Positions 1,026-54,012 of a stretch of 64,000 nucleotides of DNA are shown in pieces; the stretch's first letter is position 1; every line of letters starts with the position of its first letter. Under the pieces are notes generated by a model. It was given only the letters and a program-made list of their open reading frames with translations. It was not told the DNA's origin and made no database searches. Source of the DNA: an uncultured Methylococcus sp. (GTDB taxonomy: Bacteria; Pseudomonadota; Gammaproteobacteria; Methylococcales; Methylococcaceae); contig CAYFOC010000001.1 of the NCBI GenBank assembly GCA_964344615.1, positions 802 to 64,801 on the forward strand, in the 5' to 3' direction. The translations under genes and the position numbers were made by a program.

Positions 1026-1029
1026 TTGA

Positions 1030-2208: not shown

Positions 2209-2218
2209 GGGGAATGTT

Positions 2219-2977: not shown

Positions 2978-3037
2978 GATGTTGAATCCCTGCGGGGGAT
3001 AGCGGGTTACTTGACCGACGATGCCTCGTCGAGCTCA

Positions 3038-3067
3038 ATAAAAAAACCCATGCACAGCATGGGTTTT
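3038..3067 (-). terminator. Rho-independent terminator ending the five-gene sterol operon
   Basis: The minus strand reads aaacccatgc-tgt-gcatgggttt followed by ttttttatt. This is a 10-bp perfect stem plus a U-tract, about 20 nt after the epoxidase stop (3089). Confidence 0.8.
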
Positions 3068-3088
3068 ATCGAGGCTGAAACCTCTGGG

Positions 3089-4582
3089 TTATTTCGCGAG
3101 CGCGCTCTGTTCCCGAATCCAGTGCTGCAGAGCAGTCTGAGGAATGCTCAGGCTCTTCTGGGCCAGTTTCAAAATGGACCTGAACCATCCGTATCCGGCA
3201 CCACGGCGCAGTTCGCTGGGCAGGAGTCGGAACGCTTGGAATACCACGACCACGAACTGCATGCCCATGGAAACGATGCTGCTATCCATGGTTGAGAGCA
3301 ATGCGAGGGAATGGGAGCGTCCCTTTGGATTGCTCTTCCAGTATTCGAAGATACAGCGGTTGAGCAATACGGACTCAGGAGTATGAGACAGGAAAGCCTC
3401 GCGCAATTCCTCAGAAAGAGTTCTGCGGGTGAGCTGTACGCGACCTGCCGCAATGGCGTAATCACGCAACGCTTTCTCGACATTCAGGTCGTGCTTGATA
3501 AGGGCATCACGGAGGCTCAACGCGTCCTTGACGGCGGTTGTAATGCCGGAGGCGGTTAGCGGATGACAGCAACCACGTGCATCCCCCAAAAGGGCCACGT
3601 TCATCTTCACGCTGCTTTTCGGGACAATCCGATAATTTGCGGCTGCCAACGGCTTGTCTCGCGCCATGGCAGCTTCGATGTCTTCCCGGAATGCCTTAGG
3701 GAAAGATTTGAGGTGTTCACGCACGGACTCTTTCGAGTCATCGCCTCTCAGCACTTCAAGCATGACGCGTGCACGTCCCTTTGAAACGCTGTAGGCATAG
3801 GAAATGCCGAGCGGATTTAGGAAAATATTGCCATGCTCGCGGGTCGGCAGGTGTCGATCATCGACTTCCACGCCCAACATGCCAGAGTAGCGGTGAGTTT
3901 CGTGGGAAATCCCAGTCAACTTGCGAACCTGAGACATACCTCCATCTGCGCCAATAATTAGCTTGGCGTTTACGCGGACATCTCCGTTTTCCGTGGACAC
4001 CACGGCAAAAGCAGTCTTTCCATCGCCCTCAGCAGTAATGGCCGTGACTCTTGGCCCCATCCACACGTCAACGCCATCGACTTTCTTTACCTTGTCGAGG
4101 AGATGATCCTTCAAGGCTTGGTGTTCAATGGCCATGCCGCCATGATCGAGGCCTTCGACTTCGCCATACGGCAAGACAACGTTGTCTTCGTACTCTTTTC
4201 CCTCATTGAAGGGGAAGATAGAGAATCCACGGATGATGGAGCCCAGTTCAGGCTTATCATCCAGCAAACCCAAGTGCTTTAGGCCATCAATCCCAGGCGG
4301 GTGAATGAGTTCCCCGGCGAGGCGGCGTCCGTGTGAGGACTTTGGTTCGATGATCAGAATCTTGAGGCCGAGCGGCGCGAGTGCGGCCGCAGCAGCGGAA
4401 CCGGCAACACCACCACCAGCGATAAGGACGTCAACGTCCACGGGAATATTCGCGTTATTTTCCATCATCAATCTGGTTGGACCCATCAAAGATTGAAGTA
4501 GCGAAGGTTGAAGGGCTTCGGATGAGGGGAATCCCCTCGTTTCGAAGCTATTGTGCCACAAAAAAGCAACAATCGTTGCCAA
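3089..4582 (-). CDS. Squalene monooxygenase (squalene epoxidase), FAD-dependent
   Basis: The dinucleotide fold is 'VDVLIAGGGVAGSAAAAALAPLGLKILIIEP'. The motif 'LLGDARGCCHPLTASGITTAV' matches the eukaryotic squalene-epoxidase motif GDAxNMRHPLTGGGMTV. The gene lies 9 nt downstream of the cyclase. The true start may be an internal Met (4486, 4468 or 4465), which would give a shorter N-terminus. Confidence 0.85.
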   Translation of the reverse strand: MATIVAFLWHNSFETRGFPSSEALQPSLLQSLMGPTRLMMENNANIPVDVDVLIAGGGVAGSAAAAALAPLGLKILIIEPKSSHGRRLAGELIHPPGIDGLKHLGLLDDKPELGSIIRGFSIFPFNEGKEYEDNVVLPYGEVEGLDHGGMAIEHQALKDHLLDKVKKVDGVDVWMGPRVTAITAEGDGKTAFAVVSTENGDVRVNAKLIIGADGGMSQVRKLTGISHETHRYSGMLGVEVDDRHLPTREHGNIFLNPLGISYAYSVSKGRARVMLEVLRGDDSKESVREHLKSFPKAFREDIEAAMARDKPLAAANYRIVPKSSVKMNVALLGDARGCCHPLTASGITTAVKDALSLRDALIKHDLNVEKALRDYAIAAGRVQLTRRTLSEELREAFLSHTPESVLLNRCIFEYWKSNPKGRSHSLALLSTMDSSIVSMGMQFVVVVFQAFRLLPSELRRGAGYGWFRSILKLAQKSLSIPQTALQHWIREQSALAK

Positions 4583-4591
4583 GCAACAACA

Positions 4592-6583
4592 TTAAACCCT
4601 TTGAATGTTGTGATTATACCGCGTCAAAGCCCAGACGGGGAAATATGTATGGTACAGACGGTAGTCCAGCATGGCCGCACCAAAAAACACACCATTAACG
4701 GCTTGCATGGGCCAGCTGCCATCCGTTTGCTGTTGCTTCAGAAGCCACACCATTCCATTTGCGATGGCTGGATGATCTGAAGGCAGAATATCCATCAGCG
4801 CCAGTAACGCCCAACTCGTCATGACCACCTGTGTTTCAGGATGCTCGATGTAGCGCTCTTCCAGGCAGCTCGTGTAATGCTCGCTCCATCCACCATCGTC
4901 CCTCTGGTGAGCGAGAAGAAATGCCGCTGCCTTCTGCATCAAGGGGTCATCAGCGCTCGTTCCTGAGGATCGGAGAGCTCTTACGGCGTGGAAAGTTGCA
5001 TAGGTGTAATTGATGCCCCAGAAACCCTGCCAGGAGCCATCTGCCTGCTGTTGGCTCTTCAACAAGCGAATGGCGCGCTGGGATGCCTCTTCAAGCCGGA
5101 CAGGCTCAAAATCCGGATCCAAATGCCGAAAGTGGCAGATGGCATCCAATGCTGAAGCCGTACACTCAATATAGGAGAGTTCCGTCATGCATTGACCGAA
5201 CATTTCAGAGGGATTGATCAGTTCCAGCAGCTTGCCGGCACGGCGCTGCTCGTAGGTGCCAAAACCCCCATCCTTGTTTTGTCTGGAAAGAATGAAGAGG
5301 ATGCCCTCACGCAGTCGATTGGGGTCAAACTTCGGGAGGTTGTGGTACGAGGGGCCCGTCTGGATGGTAATGATTCCGCTGATCGCCTCGGCCGTACAGT
5401 CGCTTACCGGCCATCGATGTTCGCCATCGGAAAAGCACCATCCTCCGGTCGCGGGGTCGCGCCAGTAGTTTTCGTATCCAGGTGCCTCATCACAGAGCTG
5501 TGCTCTGGACAAAAATGCAATTGCTTTTCCCATGGCGTCAACGGTGGATTCATCCGGTGACCTGATATTCGATACTGCCTGCAGGACAAATCCCGTATCC
5601 CAAGTATTTGAACGCGCGCCAACATATCGGAGTCCCTCATTTTCGTCCTCCCATCGCCAAGCCTCAACGCCCTGGATGCTCGGTTCAAGTTCGGGATGCT
5701 TTGAGTCGGCGACAAAAATTGCCAGCGTATTGAGAAGCCCATTGACCGGTGAAATGCCCTGATAGCATGTGGTCTTCTGCTCAAAAAGGATGCGATCAAG
5801 ACACACAGAGAGCGCCTTCTCACGAGTCTTCTTGCTGTGCCAGCGTTCAAAAATAGCCAGCCCATCGTAGATCAGCCGCAGCACCGGAGTGATCGGGACA
5901 TATACATCAGACTTGGCCAGTGCATGTCGCAGCTTCGAGAAGGGGATCTGATTGTAAGGCGTCGTATACAGTTCAGAACGGAGTGCTGAAACTAAGGGCT
6001 CAGGGAGATTGGCTACGAAACGCTTTCCACAAATGTAGGCCAGTCCAAGATAAATCAGACGGGTGTGGCAATAGAAGCGCCTTGGATGGAATGGGAGCCA
6101 TTCGGGCAGCAGAAACAGTTCAGGAGGAATGGCATTCAGACCCTTGTACTCATAGAGGCCAAGTATCGCGAGCCAAAACTTTCCCCAGGTCGGGATGCCC
6201 TCTACTCCAGTAGGTTGCTGGTGTAACCAGTTTCGTGCCCTCGATGCGACCGGGTGATCCGGCGCAACATCGATGAGTCGGAGTGCAACATACGCAAGGG
6301 TCGTGAAAAAAACATAGCCAGGCGATTCCGGGTGCATGCCCCAAGATCCGTCTTTGGCCTGTGTGACCTCGAAATGTTTGATGATCTTCTCGCGATCCGC
6401 CTGCGAGTAGGGTTGGCCGACGATCGTTCGCACAATGACAGCCTGTGCGAGGATCATGGTGCACCAGACCATTTCCCCCTCGAAATCTCCTCCTGTCTTT
6501 TGTTGCGAGAGAAGGTAACGAAGGGCTGCGTCCTGCGCTTGGGTTAACCGATCGTCTGTCAAAGGGGATATGGTTTCGGGCAT
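4592..6583 (-). CDS. osc: Oxidosqualene cyclase (lanosterol/cycloartenol synthase family)
   Basis: The protein is a 663-aa triterpene cyclase with QW repeats (e.g. 'QQADGSWQGFWG', 'QRDDGGWSEHY'). The catalytic motif is 'HRWPVSDCTAEAISG', i.e. VSDCTAE as in eukaryotic OSCs. No DxDDTA motif (squalene-hopene cyclase) is present. The gene is directly followed by the squalene epoxidase. Confidence 0.9.
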   Translation of the reverse strand: MPETISPLTDDRLTQAQDAALRYLLSQQKTGGDFEGEMVWCTMILAQAVIVRTIVGQPYSQADREKIIKHFEVTQAKDGSWGMHPESPGYVFFTTLAYVALRLIDVAPDHPVASRARNWLHQQPTGVEGIPTWGKFWLAILGLYEYKGLNAIPPELFLLPEWLPFHPRRFYCHTRLIYLGLAYICGKRFVANLPEPLVSALRSELYTTPYNQIPFSKLRHALAKSDVYVPITPVLRLIYDGLAIFERWHSKKTREKALSVCLDRILFEQKTTCYQGISPVNGLLNTLAIFVADSKHPELEPSIQGVEAWRWEDENEGLRYVGARSNTWDTGFVLQAVSNIRSPDESTVDAMGKAIAFLSRAQLCDEAPGYENYWRDPATGGWCFSDGEHRWPVSDCTAEAISGIITIQTGPSYHNLPKFDPNRLREGILFILSRQNKDGGFGTYEQRRAGKLLELINPSEMFGQCMTELSYIECTASALDAICHFRHLDPDFEPVRLEEASQRAIRLLKSQQQADGSWQGFWGINYTYATFHAVRALRSSGTSADDPLMQKAAAFLLAHQRDDGGWSEHYTSCLEERYIEHPETQVVMTSWALLALMDILPSDHPAIANGMVWLLKQQQTDGSWPMQAVNGVFFGAAMLDYRLYHTYFPVWALTRYNHNIQRV

Positions 6584-6603
6584 GTTGTTGGTGTTCGGGA
6601 GAG

Positions 6604-7407
6604 TTAGTGCGCAGCTTTGGTGATTTCGAGGATGACTTCGGCGAATTCTTTGTCCCAGATCACCCGGTTATAGCCCCAGGGGCCCTTGGCCAGAATGGTT
6701 TGGCCTCTTTGTATTTCTGCCTGAGCCTCTGTGGTTTTCTCATCCACCTCGAATAAGGCTTCCGCATAAAACAAGTGATTAAGTGGATGCTGACCGTAGT
6801 GGTCAACGGCTTCCTTAAGGTAAGACAGAGCCTTGTCCCCGTCACCGATGCCGGTCGGCCAGGGAGGGGCTTTCAGGTACAGCATTCCGAGCAGACGCAA
6901 CGGCCCCCCTTGATCAACGGCTTTCGAGAGTCGGGCGGCTGTCGTCAATTCATCTTCCAGGCGATGTAGGTTCTCAGCCGCCTGCACAGGGTGGTTGTTG
7001 ATGGCGAGGCCCAAGTTGGCAGCCAGATAATAGTGAACAGCCGCATCCTCCTTGCCGCCATTTGACAGGGCTCGTTCGGCAAGTTTCACGCCTTCGGCGG
7101 CGAGAGCTTCCCGGTCAGGTCCTGTAGGAAGTCTTTCAGCCAGATGCAGGGCAATTTCCGAAGATCGTGAAGATCGGATGAAGGCAGGCGTCGTGGATTT
7201 CCGCGCCAAATTCATCGCACACTGGAGATCCTCCGTTGATGTAGATGGACCAAGCGATGAAGATTCGGACAGTAGCTTTTCTTCTGTGATGTCTGCGCAA
7301 TTCCCATGCCCTACAAGGGCAACGATGCGATTGGGAAGGGCACTACAGGCGGAGAGAAGGGTCAGGGTCAGAAGCAAGCTGACCCGGTAACTCATGTGCA
7401 TCATCAA
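6604..7407 (-). CDS. bstC: Helical-repeat (TatT/TPR-like) lipoprotein, a BstC-like putative sterol-binding envelope protein
   Basis: The lipoprotein signal has the lipobox 'LTLLSAC'. The helical C-terminal block is shared with the 2219-2977 protein. Its start overlaps the stop of the upstream binding-protein gene (TGATG/TTGA at 7402-7407). The BstC assignment comes from family and context only. Confidence 0.6.
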   Translation of the reverse strand: MMMHMSYRVSLLLTLTLLSACSALPNRIVALVGHGNCADITEEKLLSESSSLGPSTSTEDLQCAMNLARKSTTPAFIRSSRSSEIALHLAERLPTGPDREALAAEGVKLAERALSNGGKEDAAVHYYLAANLGLAINNHPVQAAENLHRLEDELTTAARLSKAVDQGGPLRLLGMLYLKAPPWPTGIGDGDKALSYLKEAVDHYGQHPLNHLFYAEALFEVDEKTTEAQAEIQRGQTILAKGPWGYNRVIWDKEFAEVILEITKAAH

Positions 7408-8246
7408 TGACTCTTGTTCCAGAGGCTAATCATGGGATTAATTGCGGCAGGCGAAGCGGGGACAAAGGCGTCTATGGCAAACAGACCGCACAATTTCATC
7501 CCATCAGGGTCCTTGCAGAGGTTTGCAAGGGACTTTGCAAACCGTGCGCGCTCGTCGCTGGTGCTGGACTCCTGATTGGCCACGAGCCCCATCAATGGCA
7601 AGGGCGCCGAGGTGAAGACCGAGTCCAGTTCATGAGTCAAAGGAAGCGACCCGAGTGCAGCGAATTGCTGTCCATTGAGCAGTACCGCATCCAGTTCACC
7701 CTTGTCCAGAGCGCGCAAAGCACGGATAGCTTGTTTGCTGGCTTTAAGCTGAAAGTCTTGTTCTGGATTGATTTTCCCGGCGAACACAATTTTGCGGATA
7801 AAGCCTGCTTCCTCGAAAACCGTCCCGCCGATCGTTTTGCCCTTGAGGTCATCGAGTGAAGCAAAGCGTCCCTTTATCGCCACAAGATGAAACTGCTCTG
7901 TCGTTTCTCCGCGCATCTTGGGTTGGACGACGGGTTCAAGGTGAAGGCTGTCACGCTGCTCCAAAAAGATGCCCAGTGAGGTAATCGCGAATGCGGGATT
8001 ATTTTCGTTCAGAAGTTTCTTGCAACCCTCGACATCCGAAGAGAAGCTGCTGCTGAAGGTATTGGCAGGCCATCCTCCAACCCGTTCCACCACACTGAGC
8101 ATTGCAGACATCGCCTTATTGGCATCGTCTTCGCTCACGGGGCCACCCGGGTAGCAGACGACAACCGTTGAGGAAGCCGCAATCGTTGCGCCTGAAAAGA
8201 CGATTCCGATGATCAGGAGGATATTTCGAACAGATTGAAAGCTCAT
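7404..8246 (-). CDS. bstB: Periplasmic substrate-binding protein (PhnD-like type-2 PBP fold), BstB-like
   Basis: The signal/anchor is 'ILLIIGIVFSGATIAASS'. A PBP-like 'LDDLKGKTIGGT' segment is present. The gene lies 6 nt after the RND gene and overlaps the start of the next gene. No ABC permease or ATPase is nearby, so it is not a classical ABC importer component. Confidence 0.6.
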   Translation of the reverse strand: MSFQSVRNILLIIGIVFSGATIAASSTVVVCYPGGPVSEDDANKAMSAMLSVVERVGGWPANTFSSSFSSDVEGCKKLLNENNPAFAITSLGIFLEQRDSLHLEPVVQPKMRGETTEQFHLVAIKGRFASLDDLKGKTIGGTVFEEAGFIRKIVFAGKINPEQDFQLKASKQAIRALRALDKGELDAVLLNGQQFAALGSLPLTHELDSVFTSAPLPLMGLVANQESSTSDERARFAKSLANLCKDPDGMKLCGLFAIDAFVPASPAAINPMISLWNKSH

Positions 8247-8252
8247 TGCGAT

Positions 8253-10937
8253 TTATTTTTTCCGACGGGTAACAAGGATCAGTCCGATAGCGGGTGCGAT
8301 GAACAGCGTGGATGCGAGACAACTCAGGAGACCTATGGTGATATCAATACCCAGTCCCGAAACGCCTCGGTAGCTTGCCAATGTGATGGCGCCAAGTCCC
8401 GCGAGTTCCGTTCCGGCTGCGAGCAGAATGACGCGGCCTGCATCCAGTGCAATGCCGACCGGATCCCGACCCTCAAGGGCCATCCAACGATGACTGAGCC
8501 AGACGCCATAATCGACCGCCAACGCAATCACGAGTGGCAAAGCGATGATATTGGCGTAATTGTAGTGCAGCCCAGCGACTTTCATCACGCCAAGCATCCA
8601 TCCTCCGCCAATTACAAGCGGCAGAGCTGCCATCAATATGCCTTTAGGGGACCGAATGACGAAGCATAGCCAAGCCAGACAGACGAGGATGGCGGCTTTG
8701 GTTCCATGGCTGAAACTACTGACTACGGCCTTGGAGAAGACCTGATGCGTTGAGGGGAAGCCGGTTGCATCGGGAGAAACGGAGTACACCTCCTTCATCA
8801 GATCATCGAGGTTGTTCGGGTCATAGACACTTTTTGCAGGGTAGGCGTAGGCAGCCAGGGTGCCATCGGGCGCAACAAACCGCTCTCTTATTCCATCGGG
8901 CAGATCCGAAGGTGACAGCGGGGTGGTTTTTTGCCATCTTGAAACGGTCTCGAGGCCATGAGTGGCTGAAGCGATAAGTGCTCTGAGGAAAGCCTCTGAG
9001 CGTGCGCGACCTGAATCTGGCTCTTCTTCCAGGCGAATGAGGATGTCATTCATGTCCTTGTGGAGCGCCTCTATGCGGCTGACCAGCTCCTTGTTGCCCG
9101 AACTAAACGCCTGTTCTTCGTAGTCCTCAAGTTTTTCAATGGCCAAACGAAGGCTCTGACGAATCTTGAAGAACGTGGGTTCATCAAGGCCCTGATTGCT
9201 CAGTGTCAGGAGATGCTGACGTAGGACAGGTCTTGCGGCGAGCGATCCCAGACGATGCGCCTGCTCGATGCGTTCAGATCCATCGGCTGGGAAGAAACTG
9301 CTGATGGACTGCACTTTGGCTATCGTGGGGAGCTGCTGAGCGCCTTCTGTGATTCTCCGAATATCTTCTAACGTCTTGGCCGTGAAGATGATGATTTCGG
9401 ACTGATAATCTGTCTCTGTGACCAGCTTTCGTTGATATTCGGCGGCTTTGGAGTCTTTGGGGAGCAAAGACAAGACGTCGTAATCAAATTCCATGTCCAG
9501 ACCGGCATGGATGCCGAAAATGGCTCCGCCGGACGCGATCAGCACCAGGGCAAGCGCGACACTCCTGGGGAGTGTCGGTGACGTGGCGTCAACCTTTTTT
9601 ACCTTCTTCGCCTTCATTTTAGGAGGGAAGAGGGCATAGACGGCGGGCTGAACGACCCATGTGCTGATGAGGATCAGAAGAACACCACCTGCAGCGATGA
9701 TGCCGAGTTCTGCAAATCCCGGGAATTCGACCGTTGCCAGCGTTCCAAAGATGAAGAGGGATGCGCCACCGGCGGTTATGACGGCTGGAAAGGAATCGCG
9801 TATCCCAGTGCCGATCGCGTCCAAAAGCGGTAATCCTGAACGCCTGGCTTCGGCAATTTGTGAGGTCGTGAAAATGCCATAGTCCGCGCCGAGGCCAAAA
9901 AGGATGGCGAGGAAGCTCGATGTGATGATGGTGAGATGGCCCACGGTCAAATAGGCGAAGCCAAGACTCCAAAGTGCACCCAGACCCATCGGGATGAAAA
10001 TCGCAAGCGCCCACGGAACACTTCTGACGACGAGGAAAATGAGTGCGCCGATCAATCCCGCAGCGGTCCAGATGACCATCTTGATATCCCGTTCGATATC
10101 GATGTACTCCTCGTAGGCGATCGCAGGCAATCCGGTCAGAACGACATTCGGGGCCTTCAGGCCTTTTGCTTCAAAGTCATGGGCAAGTTCTCCGGCTGCC
10201 TTCTGAACTTTTTCATTCAGAGGCGCCAGCGTCTCAAAGTCTTCCCCCTTGGCCTTGGCATGAACGAAAACCAAAAGCATTCGGCCATCGTGCGAGGTGA
10301 AATACCCTTTGCCCAGTTGCTCAGCGCCAATGGCTTTGAGGATTTCTTCGAAATTGATATCTGCGCTTGAGGGCGGGTTGTTCAGCCAGCGTTGCCATTC
10401 CTGAAGAAACGCATCCGCCGCTTTCATACCGGTCAATGCCGCTTGAATATCCGGGGTATCAGAATCGGCCCCCGCATTGCTTGATGAGGCCAGCGCCATC
10501 AAGGATTCAAGGGACGCTCCTTTGATCGTGGATCCGGCCTGAAGCGCTTTTTCGAGCTGATCAAGCTGATCTTCTGGCAGCAAGAGGTAAAGATGGTCGT
10601 GCAAGAAGCTCGTGTCGATGCGATCTGTGGCTTGCGCAATTTCAGGGAGACTTCTTAGCTTGACTGCCAGTTCATGGGCAAAGGATTCCAGATCTTCGCG
10701 CGGAGCATTCTCAAGGATCACCACCAGGTCCGAGGAAGCACCGAAGGTGTCGAGATACTGGTTCAGTCGGTGCGCAACCTCCGTGTTCTGTGGCAACAAG
10801 GCCTGCCTTGATGTGTAAACCGGCAGGTGTGTCGCAGCAAGGATGGCAGCGAGTGAAATCAATAAGGCTCCGGAGAGAACCCACCAGGGGTGACGGGCGG
10901 AACCAAGGCTCAGGCGATAAACGAGAGTTTTCAGCAT
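8253..10937 (-). CDS. bstA: RND-superfamily inner-membrane transporter of the HpnN/MmpL type, BstA-like putative sterol exporter
   Basis: The 894-aa protein has two 6-TM bundles ('...ILFGLGADYGIF...' and '...VIALAVDYGVWLSH...'), each preceded by a large periplasmic loop. This is the typical HpnN/MMPL architecture. It is the first gene of the operon that ends with the cyclase and epoxidase. Confidence 0.7.
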   Translation of the reverse strand: MLKTLVYRLSLGSARHPWWVLSGALLISLAAILAATHLPVYTSRQALLPQNTEVAHRLNQYLDTFGASSDLVVILENAPREDLESFAHELAVKLRSLPEIAQATDRIDTSFLHDHLYLLLPEDQLDQLEKALQAGSTIKGASLESLMALASSSNAGADSDTPDIQAALTGMKAADAFLQEWQRWLNNPPSSADINFEEILKAIGAEQLGKGYFTSHDGRMLLVFVHAKAKGEDFETLAPLNEKVQKAAGELAHDFEAKGLKAPNVVLTGLPAIAYEEYIDIERDIKMVIWTAAGLIGALIFLVVRSVPWALAIFIPMGLGALWSLGFAYLTVGHLTIITSSFLAILFGLGADYGIFTTSQIAEARRSGLPLLDAIGTGIRDSFPAVITAGGASLFIFGTLATVEFPGFAELGIIAAGGVLLILISTWVVQPAVYALFPPKMKAKKVKKVDATSPTLPRSVALALVLIASGGAIFGIHAGLDMEFDYDVLSLLPKDSKAAEYQRKLVTETDYQSEIIIFTAKTLEDIRRITEGAQQLPTIAKVQSISSFFPADGSERIEQAHRLGSLAARPVLRQHLLTLSNQGLDEPTFFKIRQSLRLAIEKLEDYEEQAFSSGNKELVSRIEALHKDMNDILIRLEEEPDSGRARSEAFLRALIASATHGLETVSRWQKTTPLSPSDLPDGIRERFVAPDGTLAAYAYPAKSVYDPNNLDDLMKEVYSVSPDATGFPSTHQVFSKAVVSSFSHGTKAAILVCLAWLCFVIRSPKGILMAALPLVIGGGWMLGVMKVAGLHYNYANIIALPLVIALAVDYGVWLSHRWMALEGRDPVGIALDAGRVILLAAGTELAGLGAITLASYRGVSGLGIDITIGLLSCLASTLFIAPAIGLILVTRRKK

Positions 10938-11470: not shown

Positions 11471-11570
11471 TTCGATTACGCGACTCGCGAACTTCCATAG
11501 CTCGGAACGGTGGTGGAATTCCCACACGTACGTGGGGGATAATGATCCCAATTCCCACCCGAGGCGCGAA

Positions 11571-49864: not shown

Positions 49865-49894
49865 TCGGTGGGGGTGGGGTCTAGCTCCAGAGAT

Positions 49895-49926
49895 TCATGG
49901 CTTGCGTTCAAAGACGCAAGCCATGA
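49895..49926. terminator. Strong hairpin between convergent genes (terminator-like, no clear U-tract)
   Basis: The hairpin tcatggcttgcgt-tcaaag-acgcaagccatga is a 13-bp perfect stem. It lies between the stops at 49864 (+) and 49957 (-). Confidence 0.55.
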
Positions 49927-49956
49927 GGGTCTTGAAAGCGCCGATGGATCTGACGC

Positions 49957-51567
49957 CTAGTCTTTGCTGAAATCCACGTTCGCATCTTCCCCTGCCTTGA
50001 GTTTCCTCATTTCGACAGGTGAGATGCGGCCTCTGGACGAGACCTTGTCGTAGATCTCTCCAAAAGCCTGTCGGCAGAAAGGAAGACGGTCGCGCAGGCG
50101 ATCATAGGCTGAATGATCAAACATCTTTCGGAAGTCCTCTTCCGTAAGGAGCGTCTTGGCATAAAGCGCCTGATAACCCTGATTCTCGATCACGAACTTT
50201 TCCAGCGAGGGCAGAGCTTTGCGACCGTCAAAGCCGGTCTTCTTGGGCGTGCCGTAAGCCCCAATATCCACATACATCGGATCGCGCTCACCGTTTGGTG
50301 CCTCATAGGGATGAATTAGGCCGAGATGCTGTGGGTTGTCGAACACCGCCATCGGTGAGAGCCACAGCGGATATAAGTCGAAGTGGTCGTCAAAGTACTC
50401 CAGGGACTTTTTCAGCAAAGCCATCGGCATCAGCATATCCTGCACGACATGATGCTTTTCCCGAAGGCGTCGGGTTGTCTCGGTCTCGGTGTACTTCAGC
50501 AGTTCAATGCGTGGGGGCAGGGCCCAACCCAAAAGAAACCTGAACAAGGGGTTGTTGCCGAAAGTGATGATTTCCTCCATGGCCCAGAAGTAGCTCCGGG
50601 TATGACGGTGGAGGTAGTCACGGAGCGGAATGTATTCCACAACCTCTTTGCCGGCGGCAAGAATTTCCTCAACGTGTTTGTAGAACCAAGGCTTATACCA
50701 GCGACCAATCGGATTGATTGGGCCATCCTGACCGGCTTCATCGGTCAGATTTCCAATCATGACCACGCCCCGATCGCGGCTGTAGGTCAATGCTTCAACA
50801 TATTCATTCTCGACCGTGTTCCGGCAGGCCTGATCAAATGATTCTGTCAGGGCGTCAAGGCGTGTCTTCGGATGGTAGGACACTCGAACATATTTCTTGG
50901 CGGGGATGATCTTGAGTTCGGCCGCAACCAGAAATCCGAGCGTACCGTGACTCCAGGGGATGAGATGGAATAGTTCCGAGTTTTCATCGGCGGAGCAGTG
51001 CAAGAGCTTTCCTTCGGCCGTCACGATGTCGAAGGATTCGCAGATGAATTGGAATAACCCATATTTGTGGCTGCTGGTTTCAACGCCAAATCCCATGATC
51101 AGGCCGCCGACGGTGAGATCATCAAGTTCAGGGACAACGGGCAAAATCCAGCCCCGACTGATCAAGGTTCTTGAGATTTGTCCCATGCTTGCCATGGGTT
51201 CGACACGAACCGTTTGTCGCTCCTCGTCGATCGATAACAGGTCATACATCCCGATGTAGATGTTTCGGCGCGAGAGTTTGTATTTTGGAACCATCTCACT
51301 CATGGATTGCCATCCAGAGCGGGCCGTACAGAGTTGTTCCTTGGCGCCGTCCTTTTGCCATGCCTCGATTTGAGCGATGACCGATTCAACCCGCTGCTGG
51401 TGTCTTTGCGGCGCGGTTCGCATGCGGAAGAGGATGTGGTTGCGAATGAAGACGTAAGCGCTGTAGACCGTTGAAATCGGTAGTAGGCACACGGTTGCGA
51501 ACAGACCCCGATGGTGGGTCAGGATATATTCGAAGAGTTGCCCTGAGGCTTTCGTTTCTTGGGTCAT
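49957..51567 (-). CDS. Delta(24)-sterol reductase (DHCR24 / DWF1-DIMINUTO family FAD-linked oxidoreductase)
   Basis: Against my recollection of human DHCR24, long runs are identical or near-identical: 'VRVEP..(S/T)MGQ', 'PELDDLTVGGLIMG', 'SSHKYGLFQ', 'GTLGFLVAAE', 'IIPAKKYV', 'YKPWF.KHVE', 'EYIPLR.Y.HRHTRS.FW', 'FGNNP.FR.L.GW..PP.I.LLK', 'HHVVQDML.PM', 'YP.WL.P' and 'DIGAYG.P'. There is also an N-terminal TM helix and a 'AP..H..RV' segment. Confidence 0.85.
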   Translation of the reverse strand: MTQETKASGQLFEYILTHHRGLFATVCLLPISTVYSAYVFIRNHILFRMRTAPQRHQQRVESVIAQIEAWQKDGAKEQLCTARSGWQSMSEMVPKYKLSRRNIYIGMYDLLSIDEERQTVRVEPMASMGQISRTLISRGWILPVVPELDDLTVGGLIMGFGVETSSHKYGLFQFICESFDIVTAEGKLLHCSADENSELFHLIPWSHGTLGFLVAAELKIIPAKKYVRVSYHPKTRLDALTESFDQACRNTVENEYVEALTYSRDRGVVMIGNLTDEAGQDGPINPIGRWYKPWFYKHVEEILAAGKEVVEYIPLRDYLHRHTRSYFWAMEEIITFGNNPLFRFLLGWALPPRIELLKYTETETTRRLREKHHVVQDMLMPMALLKKSLEYFDDHFDLYPLWLSPMAVFDNPQHLGLIHPYEAPNGERDPMYVDIGAYGTPKKTGFDGRKALPSLEKFVIENQGYQALYAKTLLTEEDFRKMFDHSAYDRLRDRLPFCRQAFGEIYDKVSSRGRISPVEMRKLKAGEDANVDFSKD

Positions 51568-51615
51568 GGATCTTTTGCTACGTGCTTTTGCGCTAATGGG
51601 ATCGTCATATCAGAA

Positions 51616-51637
51616 AGCCCCTACGAGGGTAGGGGCT
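51616..51637. repeat. Perfect 9-bp-arm inverted repeat in the divergent DHCR24/sdmB-like control region
   Basis: The repeat agcccctac-gagg-gtaggggct lies 49 nt upstream of the DHCR24-like ATG (51567, minus) and 54 nt upstream of ATG 51691 (plus). Confidence 0.6.
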
Positions 51638-51690
51638 TCCTCTGTTGTGCCATGTTACCATTAGAGAAATTGCGCGAATATTCAGGAACC

Positions 51691-52701
51691 ATGACCTCGA
51701 CTCCGATTCTTGTCACAGGTGGCACGGGCCATCTTGGCGCCAATCTCATTCGCCGCCTCTTGCGTGACGGCCACGCCGTAAGGGCGCTGGTTCGCCCCGG
51801 CCGAGACAATGGGGCGTTCGATGGCCTTGATCTTGAAGTGATTGAGGGCGATCTCAGGGATCGCGCGGCCGTTGAAAATGCGGTGCGCGGTTGTCGTAAG
51901 ATCTACCATTGCGCGGCTCATGTTTCGACGATCGAAGGGGATGCCGCGCACAAGCGTGAAATCTTTGAGTCCAATGTTCTTGGAACAATGAATCTCCTGG
52001 ATGCTGCAAAATCATTGGGCGTTGAGAAGGTGGTTGTTTCAGGCTCTCTGAGTGCAACCGGCTATGAAAAAGGGGTACCGAGCGTTGAGTCGGATCCTTT
52101 CTATCCCTTTGACCGGCATCTGCCTTACGGCTTCACCAAGCATTTGGTGGAACATCATTGTCTCAGAGCGCATGCCGATGGGCTGGATGTCGTTGTCGCT
52201 GTTTCCTGCGCGATCATAGGACCTAACGATTTTGTTCCCTCGCGGTTCGGGCAGGTGCTGATTGATTTTGCCCATGGCAAACTGAATGCCTACATTCCGG
52301 GCGGATTCGAATTTGTCTCGACCGAAGATATTGTCGAGGGACACGTGTTGGCGATGGATAAAGGTCGTTCTGGCCAGAAGTATCTGATCAGTACCACGTA
52401 TTCGACCGTAGATGATCTTCTAGACCTCTTTTCAGAGGTCACCGGGAAGCCAAAGCCACGGCTTCGCCTCCCGATTCCGGTGATGGCAGCCATCGCCGGA
52501 GTGATGGATACGCTTTGGTTCAGATTCTTCCCGAATCAGCCAAGACGTTTTACACCCGCAGCTGTTCGACTGCTGAGCATGCATCGTAAGGTCGATAATT
52601 CGAAGGCCAAGAACGAGCTCGGCTACCAGCCAACGTCTCTGCGCGATGCTGTGCAATCCGCCTATGATGACTTTGTCAGACGAGGTCTGATTCGGCGGTG
52701 A
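51691..52701 (+). CDS. sdmB: NAD(P)-dependent extended-SDR (3-beta-HSD / epimerase-dehydratase family), SdmB-like sterol C-4 demethylation reductase/decarboxylase candidate
   Basis: I moved the start to ATG 51691, which has AGGA upstream. The Rossmann motif is 'ILVTGGTGHLGANLIRRLL' and 'LPYGFTKHL' carries the YxxxK catalytic pair. The gene sits immediately upstream of a Rieske oxygenase and divergent from DHCR24. The symbol is assigned by context. Confidence 0.6.
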   Translation: MTSTPILVTGGTGHLGANLIRRLLRDGHAVRALVRPGRDNGAFDGLDLEVIEGDLRDRAAVENAVRGCRKIYHCAAHVSTIEGDAAHKREIFESNVLGTMNLLDAAKSLGVEKVVVSGSLSATGYEKGVPSVESDPFYPFDRHLPYGFTKHLVEHHCLRAHADGLDVVVAVSCAIIGPNDFVPSRFGQVLIDFAHGKLNAYIPGGFEFVSTEDIVEGHVLAMDKGRSGQKYLISTTYSTVDDLLDLFSEVTGKPKPRLRLPIPVMAAIAGVMDTLWFRFFPNQPRRFTPAAVRLLSMHRKVDNSKAKNELGYQPTSLRDAVQSAYDDFVRRGLIRR

Positions 52702-52767
52702 CGCCCTTATTCCCGAGACGGACTTTTTTGTTTTCCTGTCCCCTATTCAGATGATACGGAGTGCCCC

Positions 52768-53925
52768 ATGAGGGATCCCCTTGATGACCGTGAATTAACC
52801 CCGCCCCCCTCGTTCCAGGAATCGCGCAGTACAAGACAGAAAGTACGCGCCGCCGGGTTGGATCCCGATCGTTGGTATGCGGTTGAGTATGACCGTGAAA
52901 TCAAGAAAGGCGAAATCAAGGAAGTTCAGTTCTGGAATCTGTCGATTGCTCTGTTTAGAGGAGAAGATGGGACCTTGTCTGCTCTCCAGAACCGGTGCCC
53001 GCATCGTCATCTGAAGCTCACGCATGGTGTTGTCGACAAATGCCAGGTTCGCTGCGCCTATCACGGCTGGTCTTTTAATCGGGATGGCTGGCTCACCGAC
53101 TATTCGCATGACAGCTTCGGTAAGCCACTGATCAAGAGCAAGCTGAGAACGTTTCCTGTAGAAGTCCGCTATGGCCTCGTCTGGCTGTTCCCGGGCGACC
53201 CTGATCTTGCCTCTGTTCGGAAAATCCCTGAAATTCCTGAACTCATGACGGACGATCCTTGGGCCGGGTTTACGGTCGACTATACGTGGAAGACCCATCA
53301 TTCCATGGTGATCGACAATATCTGCGACTTTGCGCATGCCTTCCTGCATCGGAAGTATCAGCCGTTTGTTGATGCAAAGTTGACCCACTATGAGGCGGAT
53401 GAGGACAAGGTTTATCTGACTTATGACACCTACATGGCCGAAGGTAAATTCTCCAAGTATTTCGTCAACCGCAAGCGGGTTAACACCCGATCGATTGAGA
53501 TCTGCTACGAATATCCTTACCAATGGTCAAATACAGGGAACAGCATCAAGCACTGGTGCTTCCTCCTTCCGATCGACGAACGGACAACGCGCGTATTCTT
53601 TATCTTCTACTTTGATAGCGTGAAGATTCCGATGATTCCGTTCAATGCACCGAAATGGCTGACACAACAGGTGCTTAATGCGTCCGTGCCGCTTCTATTC
53701 AAGCCCTTGCTGGCGGAAGATGGTGTCGCCCTCGAGGCCGAGCAGATCGGCTATGAGGAGCATTGGAATGCGCCACCCATTGAGCTGAACCCGATTGTGC
53801 CCTTGCTTCAGAAGTTGACGGTTGAGCAGTGGCAGAACTTCCTTGATCGAACAGCCGCTGCGGCGTCAAAGCCGAAGAGCCGGTCTGAAGAAGAGAAGCC
53901 TTCCGAAGTGGCCGAAGCCGTATAA
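52768..53925 (+). CDS. sdmA: Rieske [2Fe-2S] non-heme-iron oxygenase, SdmA-like sterol C-4 methyl oxidase candidate
   Basis: The Rieske motif is 'CPHRHLKLTHG...CAYHGW'. The mononuclear iron site is 'DNICDFAHAFLH'. The gene lies 66 nt downstream of the SDR gene. The symbol is assigned by context. Confidence 0.6.
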   Translation: MRDPLDDRELTPPPSFQESRSTRQKVRAAGLDPDRWYAVEYDREIKKGEIKEVQFWNLSIALFRGEDGTLSALQNRCPHRHLKLTHGVVDKCQVRCAYHGWSFNRDGWLTDYSHDSFGKPLIKSKLRTFPVEVRYGLVWLFPGDPDLASVRKIPEIPELMTDDPWAGFTVDYTWKTHHSMVIDNICDFAHAFLHRKYQPFVDAKLTHYEADEDKVYLTYDTYMAEGKFSKYFVNRKRVNTRSIEICYEYPYQWSNTGNSIKHWCFLLPIDERTTRVFFIFYFDSVKIPMIPFNAPKWLTQQVLNASVPLLFKPLLAEDGVALEAEQIGYEEHWNAPPIELNPIVPLLQKLTVEQWQNFLDRTAAAASKPKSRSEEEKPSEVAEAV

Positions 53926-53947
53926 ACGCCGGCTTCTAGGTCTCAGC

Positions 53948-53984
53948 AAAAGGCGCGATCATGTCCGGCATGATCGCGCCTTTT
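53948..53984. terminator. Bidirectional rho-independent terminator
   Basis: The hairpin aaaaggcgcgatcatg-tccgg-catgatcgcgcctttt is a 16-bp perfect stem with A/T tracts on both sides. It lies between the stops at 53925 (+) and 54013 (-). Confidence 0.9.
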
Positions 53985-54012
53985 GCATATTGGGATGCAG
54001 AGGAAAAATCGT

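What the first reader, a model, noticed from the sequence alone, without database searches (positions are those of the whole stretch)
51691..53925. SDR plus Rieske oxygenase pair next to DHCR24: bacterial-type (SdmB/SdmA-like) C-4 demethylation module
An extended-SDR of the 3-beta-HSD/epimerase family (GGTGHLG, YxxxK) is followed after 66 nt by a Rieske oxygenase (CPHRH...CAYHGW, plus a D-x2-H-x3-H iron site).

Bacteria that make 4-methyl sterols remove one C-4 methyl with a Rieske oxygenase (SdmA) and an NAD(P)-dependent reductase (SdmB). They do not use the eukaryotic ERG25/26/27 set.

The family pairing here, its divergent arrangement with a sterol side-chain reductase, and the presence of the osc/cyp51 locus 39 kb away all argue that this is that module. 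The clustering with DHCR24 would make this a compact 'sterol tailoring' island.
Basis: partly seen in the sequence, partly recalled or inferred. Interest (0 to 1): 0.65.

Follow-up and report, generated by a model that had tools for sequence, protein, structure and literature searches.

The report
Bacterial sterol C-4 demethylase gene pair
These two adjacent genes are the bacterial enzyme pair (SdmB and SdmA) that removes a methyl group from carbon 4 of sterols, sitting beside a sterol side-chain reductase gene in an uncultured methane-oxidiser relative; the system was already described in 2018, so this is a sound but ordinary find.

Summary

- **The pair.** 51691-52701(+) encodes a 336-aa extended SDR. 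After a 66-nt gap, 52768-53925(+) encodes a 385-aa Rieske/non-heme-iron oxygenase.
- **Family match.** Their best curated families by far are NCBIfam SdmB (306 bits) and SdmA (385 bits; the next Rieske family scores 31). Both fall below the 600-bit equivalog cut-offs, but so did all 15 other homologues tested, including those from known 4-methylsterol producers and from cyanobacteria.
- **Synteny.** Of the 80 other loci, 78 keep sdmB upstream of sdmA; the other two pieces break off before sdmB. In most Methylobacter/Methylomicrobium-type loci, and in the cyanobacterial ones, cyp51 and osc lie nearby, with bstABC too in the former.
- **The neighbour.** The divergent gene 49957-51567(-) is the methanotroph DHCR24 homologue. 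It lies beside sdmBA in three different arrangements across Methylococcales.
- **Same window.** It also holds cyp51-ferredoxin, squalene epoxidase, osc and bstCBA at 30-10937.
- **Boundaries.** A conserved extended -10-like motif and two hairpins delimit the three-gene module.

Most likely function: SdmA oxidises a C-4 methyl and SdmB decarboxylates and reduces the 3-ketone. The product would be a 4-monomethyl sterol whose side chain the neighbour saturates.

Verdict: a new member of a known kind, of low interest.

The parts
49886..49935 (.). Imperfect hairpin between the convergent stop codons of the OmpA/YidB-like gene (stop 49864) and the DHCR24-like gene (stop 49957). It is a likely two-way terminator at the left edge of the module.
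   Evidence: Inverted repeat with 22-nt arms, 82% complementary, 6-nt loop. Terminator function is inferred.
49957..51567 (-). DHCR24-like FAD-dependent oxidoreductase, 536 aa: a putative sterol delta-24 reductase, transcribed divergently from sdmB.
   Evidence: - Pfam FAD_binding_4.
- Homologues of 67-89% identity are named 'delta24-sterol reductase' by JGI. One from Methylocaldum is described as 'related to human 24-dehydrocholesterol reductase'.
- It is 69% identical to the M. luteus gene whose position fits MetluDRAFT_1263 in Wei 2016 Table 4.
- It is adjacent to sdmBA in three arrangements.
51615..51638 (.). Perfect 10-bp-stem palindrome AAGCCCCTAC-GAGG-GTAGGGGCTT in the divergent spacer. 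Its role is unknown.
   Evidence: Found. It is unique in the window and not expected by chance, but it is absent from the orthologous spacers of all relatives.
51652..51661 (+). ATGTTACCAT, an extended -10-like promoter element (TGnTAnnAT) lying 39 nt upstream of the sdmB start codon.
   Evidence: ATGnTAnCAT sits 39-49 nt upstream of sdmB in 16 loci, the window's own contig among them; one more has TGTTACCAT at 41 nt. It was found only where sdmB is not preceded by the squalene epoxidase gene, and in none of the other 59 loci with enough upstream sequence. There are only 22 occurrences in 1.29 Mb of loci. Promoter function is inferred.
51691..52701 (+). sdmB-like extended SDR, 336 aa: an NAD(P)-dependent sterol-4-carboxylate decarboxylase and 3-ketoreductase.
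   Evidence: - NCBIfam SdmB NF052578: 306 bits over the full length, ahead of HpnA at 236.
- SDRs next to sdmA in six other taxa give the same score pattern.
- TGxxGxxG, S117, Y146 and K150 are conserved.
- It lies directly upstream of sdmA in the relatives.
52768..53925 (+). sdmA-like Rieske non-heme-iron monooxygenase, 385 aa: a sterol C-4 methyl oxidase.
   Evidence: - NCBIfam SdmA NF052579: 385 bits, model positions 3-348 of 351; the next family scores 31 bits.
- C77/H79/C96/H99, D187/H190/H194 and D318 are invariant in 70 homologues.
- AF2 model with pLDDT 90. Its best structural matches are alpha3-type Rieske monooxygenases.
- 67-90% identical to the Methylococcales homologues.
53946..53986 (.). 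Perfect 18-19-bp hairpin flanked by A and T runs, between the convergent stops of sdmA (53925) and yqiA (54013). It is a likely two-way intrinsic terminator closing the sdmBA unit.
   Evidence: Inverted repeat, 100% complementary. The stretch 53920-54020 folds at -49.2 kcal/mol, z = -6.9.
30..10937 (.). Context: the core sterol locus of the same genome.
- cyp51-ferredoxin fusion, 30-1025(+), cut at the window's 5' end
- glycosyltransferase, 1030-2292(-)
- TPR protein, 2219-2977(-)
- squalene epoxidase, 3089-4582(-)
- oxidosqualene cyclase, 4592-6583(-)
- bstC 6604-7407(-), bstB 7404-8246(-), bstA 8253-10937(-)
   Evidence: Pfam. NCBIfam: osq_cycl 926 bits (cut-off 851), BstB 387 (350), BstA 1273 (1400), BstC 307 (350).

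Best explanation
This is the sdmB-sdmA operon of an uncultured Methylococcaceae-type gammaproteobacterium, paired divergently with the organism's DHCR24-type sterol delta-24 reductase gene.

**Proposed mechanism**
1. The osc/cyp51 locus of the same genome makes a C-14-demethylated 4,4-dimethyl sterol.
2. SdmA is a homo-oligomeric Rieske [2Fe-2S]/mononuclear-iron monooxygenase. It receives electrons from an unlinked reductase or ferredoxin and oxidises one C-4 methyl three times, through alcohol and aldehyde to the carboxylate. In M. capsulatus the methyl attacked is the 4-beta one.
3. SdmB is an extended SDR. It oxidises the 3-hydroxyl, which triggers decarboxylation, and then reduces the 3-ketone again with NAD(P)H.
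4. The product is a 4-monomethyl sterol.
5. The divergent FAD enzyme saturates the delta-24 side-chain double bond.

**Transcription**
The two sdm genes are probably transcribed together, from an extended -10 promoter at 51652-51661 to the hairpin at 53946-53986.

**Shown here**
- Family assignment.
- Conservation of cofactor and catalytic residues.
- Conserved gene order and linkage.
- Presence of the upstream pathway in the same window.

**Inferred**
- The chemistry, taken from the characterised M. capsulatus, Calothrix and E. salina enzymes.
- Removal of only one methyl, taken from the sterol profiles of cultured relatives that carry the same clade of genes.
- The promoter, the terminator and the electron donor.
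For: - **Family.** SdmA and SdmB are the top NCBIfam families, aligned over their full length. The next Rieske family scores 31 bits.
- **The cut-off is narrow.** Nine named SdmA homologues score 377-425 bits on the SdmA model (Methylomagnum, Methylocaldum, Methylomicrobium, Methylospira, cyanobacteria, Gemmataceae). Six sdmA-adjacent SDRs score 294-329 on SdmB and 222-238 on HpnA. The window's proteins fall within these ranges.
- **Synteny.** sdmB lies upstream of sdmA in 78 of the 80 other loci. The gap is 30-176 nt in all but two Methylococcales loci. Many loci carry cyp51-osc-(smo)-sdmB-sdmA-bstABC.
- **Phenotype of relatives.** M. luteus (L022) and Methylomicrobium (Methylosarcina) lacus (L048) carry this clade (67-72% identity). 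They make 4-methyl and 4,4-dimethyl sterols only (PMC4919349).
- **Residues.** The Rieske and iron ligands are invariant in 70 homologues. The SDR Rossmann motif and S-Y-K triad are conserved in 29.
- **Fold.** The AF2 model has pLDDT 90. It matches the Rieske monooxygenases GxtA/SxtT, DdmC, NdmA and KshA.
- **Neighbour.**
  - Its homologues are named delta24-sterol reductase.
  - It is linked to sdmBA in 29 of 68 Methylococcales loci, in three direct arrangements and, in six loci, 6-8 kb away.
  - M. lacus lacks it within 10 kb.
  - M. lacus is published as lacking the homologue and not saturating C-24.
- **Phylogeny.** Neighbour-joining trees of all three proteins place the window with the same relatives, L002, L003 and L061.
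- **Published chemistry.** PMC6385002 and PMC10202945.
Against: - Both proteins miss the NCBIfam equivalog cut-off (600 bits).
- M. capsulatus SdmA and SdmB could not be retrieved. No Methylococcus capsulatus record is among the 80 loci kept, whose weakest matches are about 54-57% identical. So the only biochemically characterised methanotroph pair is probably a rather distant relative.
- No reductase or ferredoxin partner is encoded next to the pair.
- Calothrix and Sandaracinus SdmAB remove both methyls, so homology alone does not fix the number removed.
- No expression or lipid data exist for this organism.
Confidence: 0.85

Rival explanations
1. The pair is a genuine SdmAB system but removes both C-4 methyl groups, as the Calothrix sp. 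NIES-4105 and Sandaracinus/Minicystis pairs do. This lineage would then make 4-desmethyl sterols.
For: SdmAB alone is enough for full demethylation in Calothrix (PMC10202945) and in S. amylolyticus and M. rosea (PMC12004948). No sequence feature is known that separates single from double demethylation. The window's clade (L002-L017) has no cultured member with a published sterol profile.
Against: The window's proteins group with the Methylococcales clade (67-90% identity), not with the cyanobacterial or Polyangia sequences (54-59%). Cultured members of that clade accumulate only 4-methyl and 4,4-dimethyl sterols.
Confidence: 0.1
2. The SDR is an HpnA-like hopanoid-associated sugar epimerase and the Rieske protein an aromatic or O-demethylating oxygenase. 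They would be unrelated to sterols and adjacent by chance.
For: HpnA is the second-best NCBIfam family for the SDR (236 bits). The closest solved structures are dicamba and guaiacol O-demethylases and the saxitoxin hydroxylases. Public annotations call the homologues 'phenylpropionate dioxygenase-like' and 'nucleoside-diphosphate-sugar epimerase'.
Against: - SdmB outscores HpnA, and HpnA's own cut-off (368 bits) is not met.
- SdmA scores 385 bits, against 31 or less for every other Rieske family.
- The pair sits inside or beside osc/cyp51/bst clusters in dozens of genomes.
- No hopanoid genes flank it.
- The solved structures share only about 20% identity.
Confidence: 0.03
3. The genes are decaying remnants, no longer functional after separation from the osc-bst cluster.
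For: They lie 39-45 kb from the core sterol locus, whereas in M. capsulatus (eLife 2024, PMC10942540) and in most Methylobacter-type genomes they lie next to bstABC.
Against: - Both ORFs are intact and full length.
- All catalytic and ligand residues are kept.
- The same arrangement, with proteins 71-90% identical, is conserved in 15 related species-level genomes.
- A promoter-like motif is conserved.
Confidence: 0.02

Closest known systems
SdmA/SdmB of Methylococcus capsulatus (Lee et al. 2018, PNAS 115:5884; NCBIfam NF052579 and NF052578)
   Same: - A Rieske oxygenase plus an extended SDR, encoded side by side in a methanotroph-type gammaproteobacterium that also has osc, cyp51-ferredoxin and bstABC.
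- Both proteins align over the full length of the two models.
- All cofactor ligands and catalytic residues are present.
   Different: - The scores (385 and 306 bits) are well below the 600-bit equivalog cut-offs, so the sequences are clearly diverged from the Methylococcus exemplars.
- In M. capsulatus, sdmA and sdmB form a five-gene putative operon with bstABC beside the sterol synthesis genes (PMC10942540).
- Here they lie 39 kb from bstA and are paired with the DHCR24-like gene instead.
sdmB-sdmA of Methylobacter luteus, M. marinus and Methylomicrobium lacus (uncharacterised orthologues in cultured 4-methylsterol producers)
   Same: Same protein clade: 67-72% identity for SdmA and 66-69% for SdmB. 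The gene order is the same and the spacer is short. The hosts make 4-monomethyl sterols (PMC4919349).
   Different: There the pair lies inside cyp51-osc-smo-sdmB-sdmA-bstABC. The DHCR24-like gene, if present, follows bstABC 6-8 kb away. The ATGnTAnCAT motif upstream of sdmB is absent.
SdmAB of Calothrix sp. NIES-4105, and SdmABC of Enhygromyxa salina (Lee et al. 2023, PMC10202945)
   Same: Homologous proteins. The cyanobacterial relatives fetched here are 57-59% identical for SdmA and 60-64% for SdmB. They are linked to osc and cyp51.
   Different: - Those systems remove both C-4 methyls.
- E. salina needs a second SDR, SdmC; no second SDR of this kind is in the window.
- In most of the cyanobacterial loci cyp51 lies between sdmB and sdmA.
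- None of those loci has a DHCR24-like gene nearby. Those phyla use a geranylgeranyl-reductase-type C-24 reductase (PMC12004948).
Eukaryotic C-4 demethylation complex: ERG25/SMO, ERG26/NSDHL and ERG27/HSD17B7
   Same: The overall chemistry is the same: methyl to carboxylate, then 3-dehydrogenation with decarboxylation, then 3-ketoreduction. SdmB is distantly related to NSDHL within the extended SDR/3-beta-HSD superfamily (PDB 6jkg, E 6e-15).
   Different: The oxidase is a soluble Rieske enzyme rather than a membrane di-iron fatty-acid-hydroxylase-type enzyme. It attacks the 4-beta rather than the 4-alpha methyl, as published for M. capsulatus (PMC6385002). One SDR does the work of two enzymes.
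Alpha3-type Rieske monooxygenases of known structure: dicamba monooxygenase DdmC, GxtA/SxtT, guaiacol O-demethylase (7qwt), NdmA, carbazole dioxygenase, KshA
   Same: The fold is a Rieske domain plus a catalytic domain of the VanA_C type. Foldseek E values are 1e-16 to 7e-20 and TM-scores 0.52-0.67. The iron-ligand motifs match.
   Different: Identity is only 17-22% and the substrates differ. No structure of an SdmA family member turned up among the solved structures.
DHCR24 (eukaryotic delta-24 sterol reductase) and its methanotroph homologues (MCA1404, MetluDRAFT_1263)
   Same: An FAD_binding_4 enzyme of about 530 aa with a hydrophobic N-terminus. Its homologues are named delta24-sterol reductase by JGI. 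Presence or absence of the gene tracks C-24 saturation in cultured methanotrophs (PMC4919349).
   Different: I found no biochemical test of a methanotroph homologue in the papers read. I could not align it directly to the human protein here. Its placement head-to-head with sdmB is specific to this clade and to Methylocaldum-type genomes.

Membership tests
SdmA (bacterial sterol C-4 methyl oxidase, Rieske type) | Rieske [2Fe-2S] motif CxH...CxxH | tested here: met
   C77-P-H79 ... C96-A-Y-H99. Pfam Rieske 70 bits. Invariant in 70 homologues.
SdmA (bacterial sterol C-4 methyl oxidase, Rieske type) | Mononuclear iron site: two His plus one carboxylate, with the bridging Asp | tested here: met
   D187, H190, H194 and D318 are invariant in 70 homologues. 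Assigning D318 as the carboxylate ligand is an inference from alignment, not from a structure.
SdmA (bacterial sterol C-4 methyl oxidase, Rieske type) | Best full-length match to the curated SdmA model, well separated from other Rieske families | tested here: met
   NF052579: 385 bits, E 2e-115, model positions 3-348 of 351. The next family scores 31 bits.
SdmA (bacterial sterol C-4 methyl oxidase, Rieske type) | Score at or above NCBIfam's equivalog cut-off (600 bits) | tested here: not met
   385 bits. Nine homologues from other methanotroph genera, cyanobacteria and a Gemmataceae MAG also fail it, at 377-425 bits. The cut-off therefore appears to delimit Methylococcus-like sequences, not the functional family used in the literature (BLASTp below 1e-50 and at least 30% identity in osc-bearing genomes, PMC10202945).
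SdmA (bacterial sterol C-4 methyl oxidase, Rieske type) | Encoded next to sdmB, in a genome with osc and cyp51 | tested here: met
   sdmB ends 66 nt upstream. osc and cyp51-ferredoxin are in the same window.
SdmA (bacterial sterol C-4 methyl oxidase, Rieske type) | Oxidises the C-4 methyl of 4,4-dimethyl sterols | not testable with these tools
   Needs heterologous expression and GC-MS.
SdmB (sterol-4-carboxylate decarboxylase / 3-ketoreductase, extended SDR) | Extended-SDR Rossmann motif TGxxGxxG and the catalytic Ser-Tyr-Lys | tested here: met
   T9-GGTGHLG-16, S117, Y146 and K150 are conserved in 29 sdmA-linked homologues. R35 and R38 after the second strand (VRPGR) are compatible with NADP(H) use (inference).
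SdmB (sterol-4-carboxylate decarboxylase / 3-ketoreductase, extended SDR) | Closer to the SdmB model than to its nearest paralogous family, HpnA | tested here: met
   306 against 236 bits. Six sdmA-adjacent SDRs from Methylobacter, Calothrix, Polyangia, Methylomagnum, Methylocaldum and Methylospira show the same pattern.
SdmB (sterol-4-carboxylate decarboxylase / 3-ketoreductase, extended SDR) | Score at or above NCBIfam's equivalog cut-off (600 bits) | tested here: not met
   306 bits. All six other sdmA-linked SDRs tested score 294-329.
SdmB (sterol-4-carboxylate decarboxylase / 3-ketoreductase, extended SDR) | Sufficient, together with SdmA, for decarboxylation and ketoreduction (unlike E. 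salina SdmB, which needs SdmC) | not testable with these tools
   No second paralogue is in the window, but the rest of the genome was not seen.
DHCR24-type sterol delta-24 reductase | FAD_binding_4 domain in a protein of about 520-540 aa that is homologous to proteins annotated as delta-24 sterol reductase | tested here: met
   Pfam FAD_binding_4, 50 bits. Homologues of 67-89% identity are named delta24-sterol reductase or 'related to human DHCR24'.
DHCR24-type sterol delta-24 reductase | Orthology to the methanotroph gene found by BLAST with human DHCR24 (Wei et al. 2016) | tested here: met
   69% identical to the M. luteus gene that occupies the position of MetluDRAFT_1263, ten genes after cyp51 (MetluDRAFT_1253).
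DHCR24-type sterol delta-24 reductase | Direct sequence similarity to human or plant DHCR24/DWF1 over the full length | not tested
   No eukaryotic DHCR24 sequence or structure was available in the tools. The PDB search returned only distant FAD_binding_4 enzymes.
DHCR24-type sterol delta-24 reductase | Reduces the delta-24 double bond of sterols | not testable with these tools
   Only correlative published evidence exists: M. lacus lacks the gene and keeps the double bond, while M. luteus has it and makes only saturated side chains.

The most novel reading that the evidence does not exclude
In this freshwater Methylococcaceae clade the C-4 demethylase pair has been uncoupled from the osc-bst cluster and joined head-to-head with the C-24 reductase. 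The result would be a separately controlled 'tailoring' unit. On this reading the conserved, nearly palindromic ATGnTAnCAT element (often ATGTTAACAT) is not merely an extended -10 box. It would be the operator of a regulator that tunes the ratio of 4,4-dimethyl to 4-methyl sterols, and of unsaturated to saturated side chains, independently of bulk sterol synthesis. A variant reading is that the pair in this clade removes both methyls.
Probability: 0.1. Interest if true: 0.4.

Novelty: new member of a known kind. Interest (0 to 1): 0.2.

Why it matters
Bacterial sterol tailoring bears on how 4-methyl steranes in the rock record are read, and on how sterol synthesis evolved.

This locus adds one more uncultured freshwater lineage that carries the full methanotroph-type pathway: osc, cyp51-ferredoxin, sdmBA, a DHCR24 homologue and bstABC. 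It also shows that the demethylase pair and the side-chain reductase are repeatedly brought together in Methylococcales.

That repeated linkage is useful indirect support for the reductase, which as far as I could find has not been tested biochemically. It does not change what is known about the mechanism.

Tried and rejected
- **Lee et al. 2018 (PMC6003346).** The paper is not held. The chemistry was taken from a review and from later papers of the same group.
- **Direct alignment to M. capsulatus SdmA and SdmB.** It could not be done. The NCBIfam models served as a proxy.
- **First AlphaFold model.** The 13-sequence alignment gave pLDDT 65.6 and was discarded. A 70-sequence alignment gave pLDDT 90.
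- **A shared regulatory motif.** ATGnTAnCAT occurs only once in the window, no more than chance would give. It is not upstream of the osc/bst genes, so there is no evidence for a sterol regulon motif.
- **The palindrome at 51615-51638.** I considered it as an operator or attenuator. It is not conserved in any relative, so no function is claimed.
- **A second SdmB paralogue (SdmC-like).** None was found in the window.
- **The 200-aa ORF next to cyp51.** It lies between cyp51 and osc in L022 and L019 and may be the 8,14-sterol reductase. It has no counterpart in the window.
- **Horizontal-transfer island.** Base composition is like the rest of the window, the flanks are housekeeping genes and there are no mobility genes.
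- **yqiA esterase downstream.** It is syntenic only in the closest relatives, so I treated it as unrelated.


Full report
**1. The observation**

- 51691-52701(+) gives a 336-aa protein from its ATG. The public gene call on an identical metagenome contig (ENA ERZ9869192, NODE_416) uses the same start.
- 52768-53925(+) gives a 385-aa protein. The spacer is exactly 66 nt.
- All quoted motifs are present. The SDR has T9-GGTGHLG-16, S117 and Y146-GFT-K150.
- The oxygenase has C77-P-H79...C96-A-Y-H99 and D187-FA-H190-AFL-H194.
- Pfam gives Epimerase/3Beta_HSD for the first protein and Rieske plus VanA_C for the second.
- The divergent neighbour, 49957-51567(-), is a 536-aa FAD_binding_4 protein. 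Its start codon lies 123 nt from that of the SDR.

**2. Family assignment**

NCBIfam holds dedicated models for the M. capsulatus enzymes.
- The oxygenase matches SdmA (NF052579) over positions 3-348 of 351, at 385 bits and E 2e-115. The next Rieske family scores 31 bits.
- The SDR matches SdmB (NF052578) over its full length at 306 bits, ahead of HpnA at 236.

Both scores are below the 600-bit equivalog cut-offs, so I tested what those cut-offs mean.
- Nine named SdmA homologues score 377-425 bits. They come from Methylomagnum, Methylocaldum, Methylomicrobium lacus, Methylospira, Ca. Methylocalor, Rivularia, Fischerella, a Gemmataceae MAG and the window's nearest relative.
- Six SDRs encoded next to sdmA score 294-329 on SdmB and 222-238 on HpnA. 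They come from M. luteus, Calothrix, a Polyangia MAG, Methylomagnum, Methylocaldum and Methylospira.
- The window's proteins behave like every other member outside Methylococcus. The cut-off is narrow and does not argue against the function.
- The cyanobacterial and Gemmataceae proteins score slightly higher on the SdmA model than the Methylococcales ones. No M. capsulatus locus was among the best 80 genome hits.
- The characterised M. capsulatus pair is therefore probably a rather distant relative of the main Methylococcales clade. I could not obtain its sequence to check.

**3. Relatives and synteny**

The protein search found 1459 relatives of the oxygenase at E of 1e-20 or better. The closest named ones are 62-72% identical:
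- Methylomagnum ishizawai, 72%
- Methylocaldum szegediense, 71%, which UniRef-beta-methylsterol monooxygenase
- Methylomicrobium lacus, 67%
- Methylospira mobilis, 62%

A scan of one genome per species returned 551 loci that encode a relative. The 80 best were fetched. I mapped 17 window proteins onto them with tblastn.
- **Pair order.** sdmB precedes sdmA on the same strand in 78 of the 80 other loci. In the other two the contig piece ends before sdmB.
- **Spacing.** The gap is 30-176 nt in all but two Methylococcales loci (those two are about 740 nt).
- **Cyanobacteria.** In most of these loci cyp51 is inserted between the two genes (gap about 1.4-1.5 kb).
- **Methylobacter type.** In most Methylobacter, Methylomicrobium and Crenothrix-type genomes the order is cyp51-(200-aa ORF)-osc-smo-sdmB-sdmA-bstA-bstB-bstC.
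- **Nearest relatives.** These are river and lake MAGs labelled Pseudomonadota or Methylococcaceae (L002, L003, L061; 88-90% identity). They share the window's whole arrangement: gltB, an ompA-like gene, DHCR24-like(-), sdmB, sdmA, yqiA(-), then an ABC-F gene.

Neighbour-joining trees of SdmA, SdmB and the DHCR24-like protein all group the window with those three MAGs. For SdmA and the DHCR24-like protein, that group sits inside a wider clade of freshwater 'Methylococcus sp.' MAGs. The cyanobacterial, Polyangia and Bryobacteraceae sequences fall outside. This fits vertical descent within Methylococcales.

**4. The neighbour**

- Its homologues at 67-89% identity are named 'delta24-sterol reductase' by JGI. 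One Methylocaldum record reads 'related to human 24-dehydrocholesterol reductase'.
- Wei et al. 2016 used human DHCR24 as a query. They listed MetluDRAFT_1263 (M. luteus) and MCA1404 (M. capsulatus) as homologues and found none in M. lacus.
- M. luteus makes only C-24-saturated sterols and M. lacus only unsaturated ones.
- In my M. luteus locus (L022) the gene order from cyp51 (1253) puts the DHCR24-like gene exactly at position 1263. That gene is 69% identical to the window's.
- The M. lacus locus has no copy within 10 kb.

Across 68 Methylococcales loci the gene is placed as follows:

| Position relative to sdmBA | Loci |
|---|---|
| Head-to-head upstream of sdmB | 15 |
| Directly downstream of sdmA, same strand | 7 |
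| Directly upstream of sdmB, same strand | 1 |
| 6-8 kb away (after bstABC in L022, L028, L035 and L040) | 6 |

- None of the 12 non-Methylococcales loci has the gene nearby.
- That fits the report that myxobacteria and cyanobacteria use a geranylgeranyl-reductase-type C-24 reductase (PMC12004948).
- Repeated, independent juxtaposition is good evidence for a functional link between C-4 demethylation and C-24 reduction.

**5. Structure and residues**

- In a 70-sequence alignment the four Rieske ligands, D187, H190, H194 and D318 are invariant.
- An AlphaFold model built from that alignment is confident (pLDDT 90, pTM 0.88).
- Its best PDB matches are the homotrimeric Rieske monooxygenases GxtA/SxtT, dicamba monooxygenase, a guaiacol O-demethylase, NdmA, carbazole dioxygenase and KshA. 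E values are 1e-16 to 7e-20 and identity is about 20%.
- Neither the sequence search nor the fold search of the PDB returned an SdmA family member.
- The SDR keeps the Rossmann motif, the catalytic S-Y-K and a block of family-specific residues in 29 sdmA-linked homologues.
- Its best solved relatives are an uncharacterised oxidoreductase (3wj7) and, more distantly, human NSDHL (6jkg).

**6. Transcription signals (inferred)**

- ATGTTACCAT at 51652-51661 fits an extended -10 element (TGnTAnnAT).
- The same element (ATGnTAnCAT) lies 39-49 nt upstream of sdmB in 16 loci, the window's own contig among them. One more (L018) has TGTTACCAT at 41 nt.
- It appears only where sdmB is not preceded by the squalene epoxidase gene. 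It is missing from the other 59 loci, and occurs only 22 times in 1.29 Mb of loci.
- It occurs once in the window and not near osc or bst.
- A perfect hairpin at 53946-53986 separates sdmA from the convergent yqiA (-49 kcal/mol for 53920-54020, z = -6.9).
- A weaker hairpin at 49886-49935 closes the DHCR24-like gene.
- A perfect palindrome at 51615-51638 is unique to this sequence and unexplained.

**7. Mechanism**

The characterised systems are described in PMC6385002, PMC10202945 and PMC13277303. By analogy the pathway would run as follows.
1. Lanosterol from OSC is demethylated at C-14 by cyp51-ferredoxin.
2. It is converted to the 8(14)-ene by 8,14-Bsr, which was not seen in the window.
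3. SdmA oxidises a C-4 methyl to the carboxylate.
4. SdmB decarboxylates through the 3-ketone and reduces it back.
5. The DHCR24-like enzyme saturates C-24.
6. BstABC move the sterol to the outer membrane.

Removal of a single methyl is inferred from the sterol profiles of cultured organisms that carry the same protein clade. It cannot be read from sequence, because the Calothrix and Sandaracinus pairs remove both.

**8. Verdict**

The system has been known since 2018, has curated HMMs and has been catalogued in Methylococcales. The DHCR24 homologue of methanotrophs was reported in 2016.

What is specific here is modest: a lineage in which sdmBA has left the osc-bst cluster and sits head-to-head with the reductase, with a conserved promoter-like element. 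This is a new member of a known kind, of low interest.

Noticed in passing
window 51615-51638: A perfect palindrome (10-bp arms, 4-nt centre: AAGCCCCTACGAGGGTAGGGGCTT) in the divergent spacer between the DHCR24-like gene and sdmB. It is unique in the window and absent from the orthologous spacers of all relatives.
   Followed up: partly
window 1030-2977: Two genes lie between cyp51-ferredoxin and squalene epoxidase. One is a family-2/21 glycosyltransferase with weak HpnI/HpnB similarity (1030-2292, -). The other is a TPR protein (2219-2977, -) that shares a 57-aa stretch, 35% identical, with BstC. They may be a sterol or hopanoid glycosyltransferase and a second BstC-like protein.
   Followed up: partly
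window 3089-6583, compared with L019-L041, L069-L081: The window's OSC and squalene epoxidase are only 31-35% and 22-25% identical to those in Methylobacter/Methylomicrobium sterol clusters. The OSC is 63% identical to that of L019 (a Methylococcaceae isolate), 54% to a Bryobacteraceae OSC and 42-44% to cyanobacterial ones. Two OSC/SMO lineages seem to exist within Methylococcales, even though SdmA and SdmB form one clade.
   Followed up: no
NCBIfam NF052579 scores: Cyanobacterial and Gemmataceae SdmA homologues score higher (411-425 bits) on the Methylococcus-based SdmA model than the main Methylococcales clade does (377-400). No M. capsulatus locus was among the best 80 genome hits. The characterised M. 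capsulatus SdmA may lie outside the main methanotroph clade.
   Followed up: partly
L022 4377-4979 and L019 4215-4817: A conserved 200-aa ORF lies next to cyp51 and osc in these two sterol clusters; the two copies are 71% identical. It may be the 8,14-sterol reductase described in 2026 (PMC13277303). It has no counterpart in the window, where cyp51 is cut by the 5' edge.
   Followed up: partly
L069-L081 (cyanobacteria, Bryobacteraceae): In most of these loci cyp51 is inserted between sdmB and sdmA (gap about 1.4-1.5 kb), unlike the tight sdmB-sdmA pair of Methylococcales.
   Followed up: no
L039 (JAQUQK010000058.1): A contig assigned to a 'Thermoplasmatota archaeon' MAG carries sdmB-sdmA-bstABC with 51-70% identity to the window's proteins, in the typical Methylococcales arrangement. 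This is most likely a binning error.
   Followed up: no
L019 1-11116: One Methylococcaceae genome has everything in a single cluster: smo(-), osc(-), a 200-aa ORF(-), cyp51(+), DHCR24-like(-), sdmB(+), sdmA(+). The window's two loci, 39 kb apart, could be a split version of such a cluster.
   Followed up: no
window 11532-12788: The FAD monooxygenase beside bstA has a weak Pfam squalene-epoxidase hit. By NCBIfam it is a UbiH/UbiF-type ubiquinone hydroxylase (430 bits, above the cut-off), not a second sterol enzyme.
   Followed up: yes
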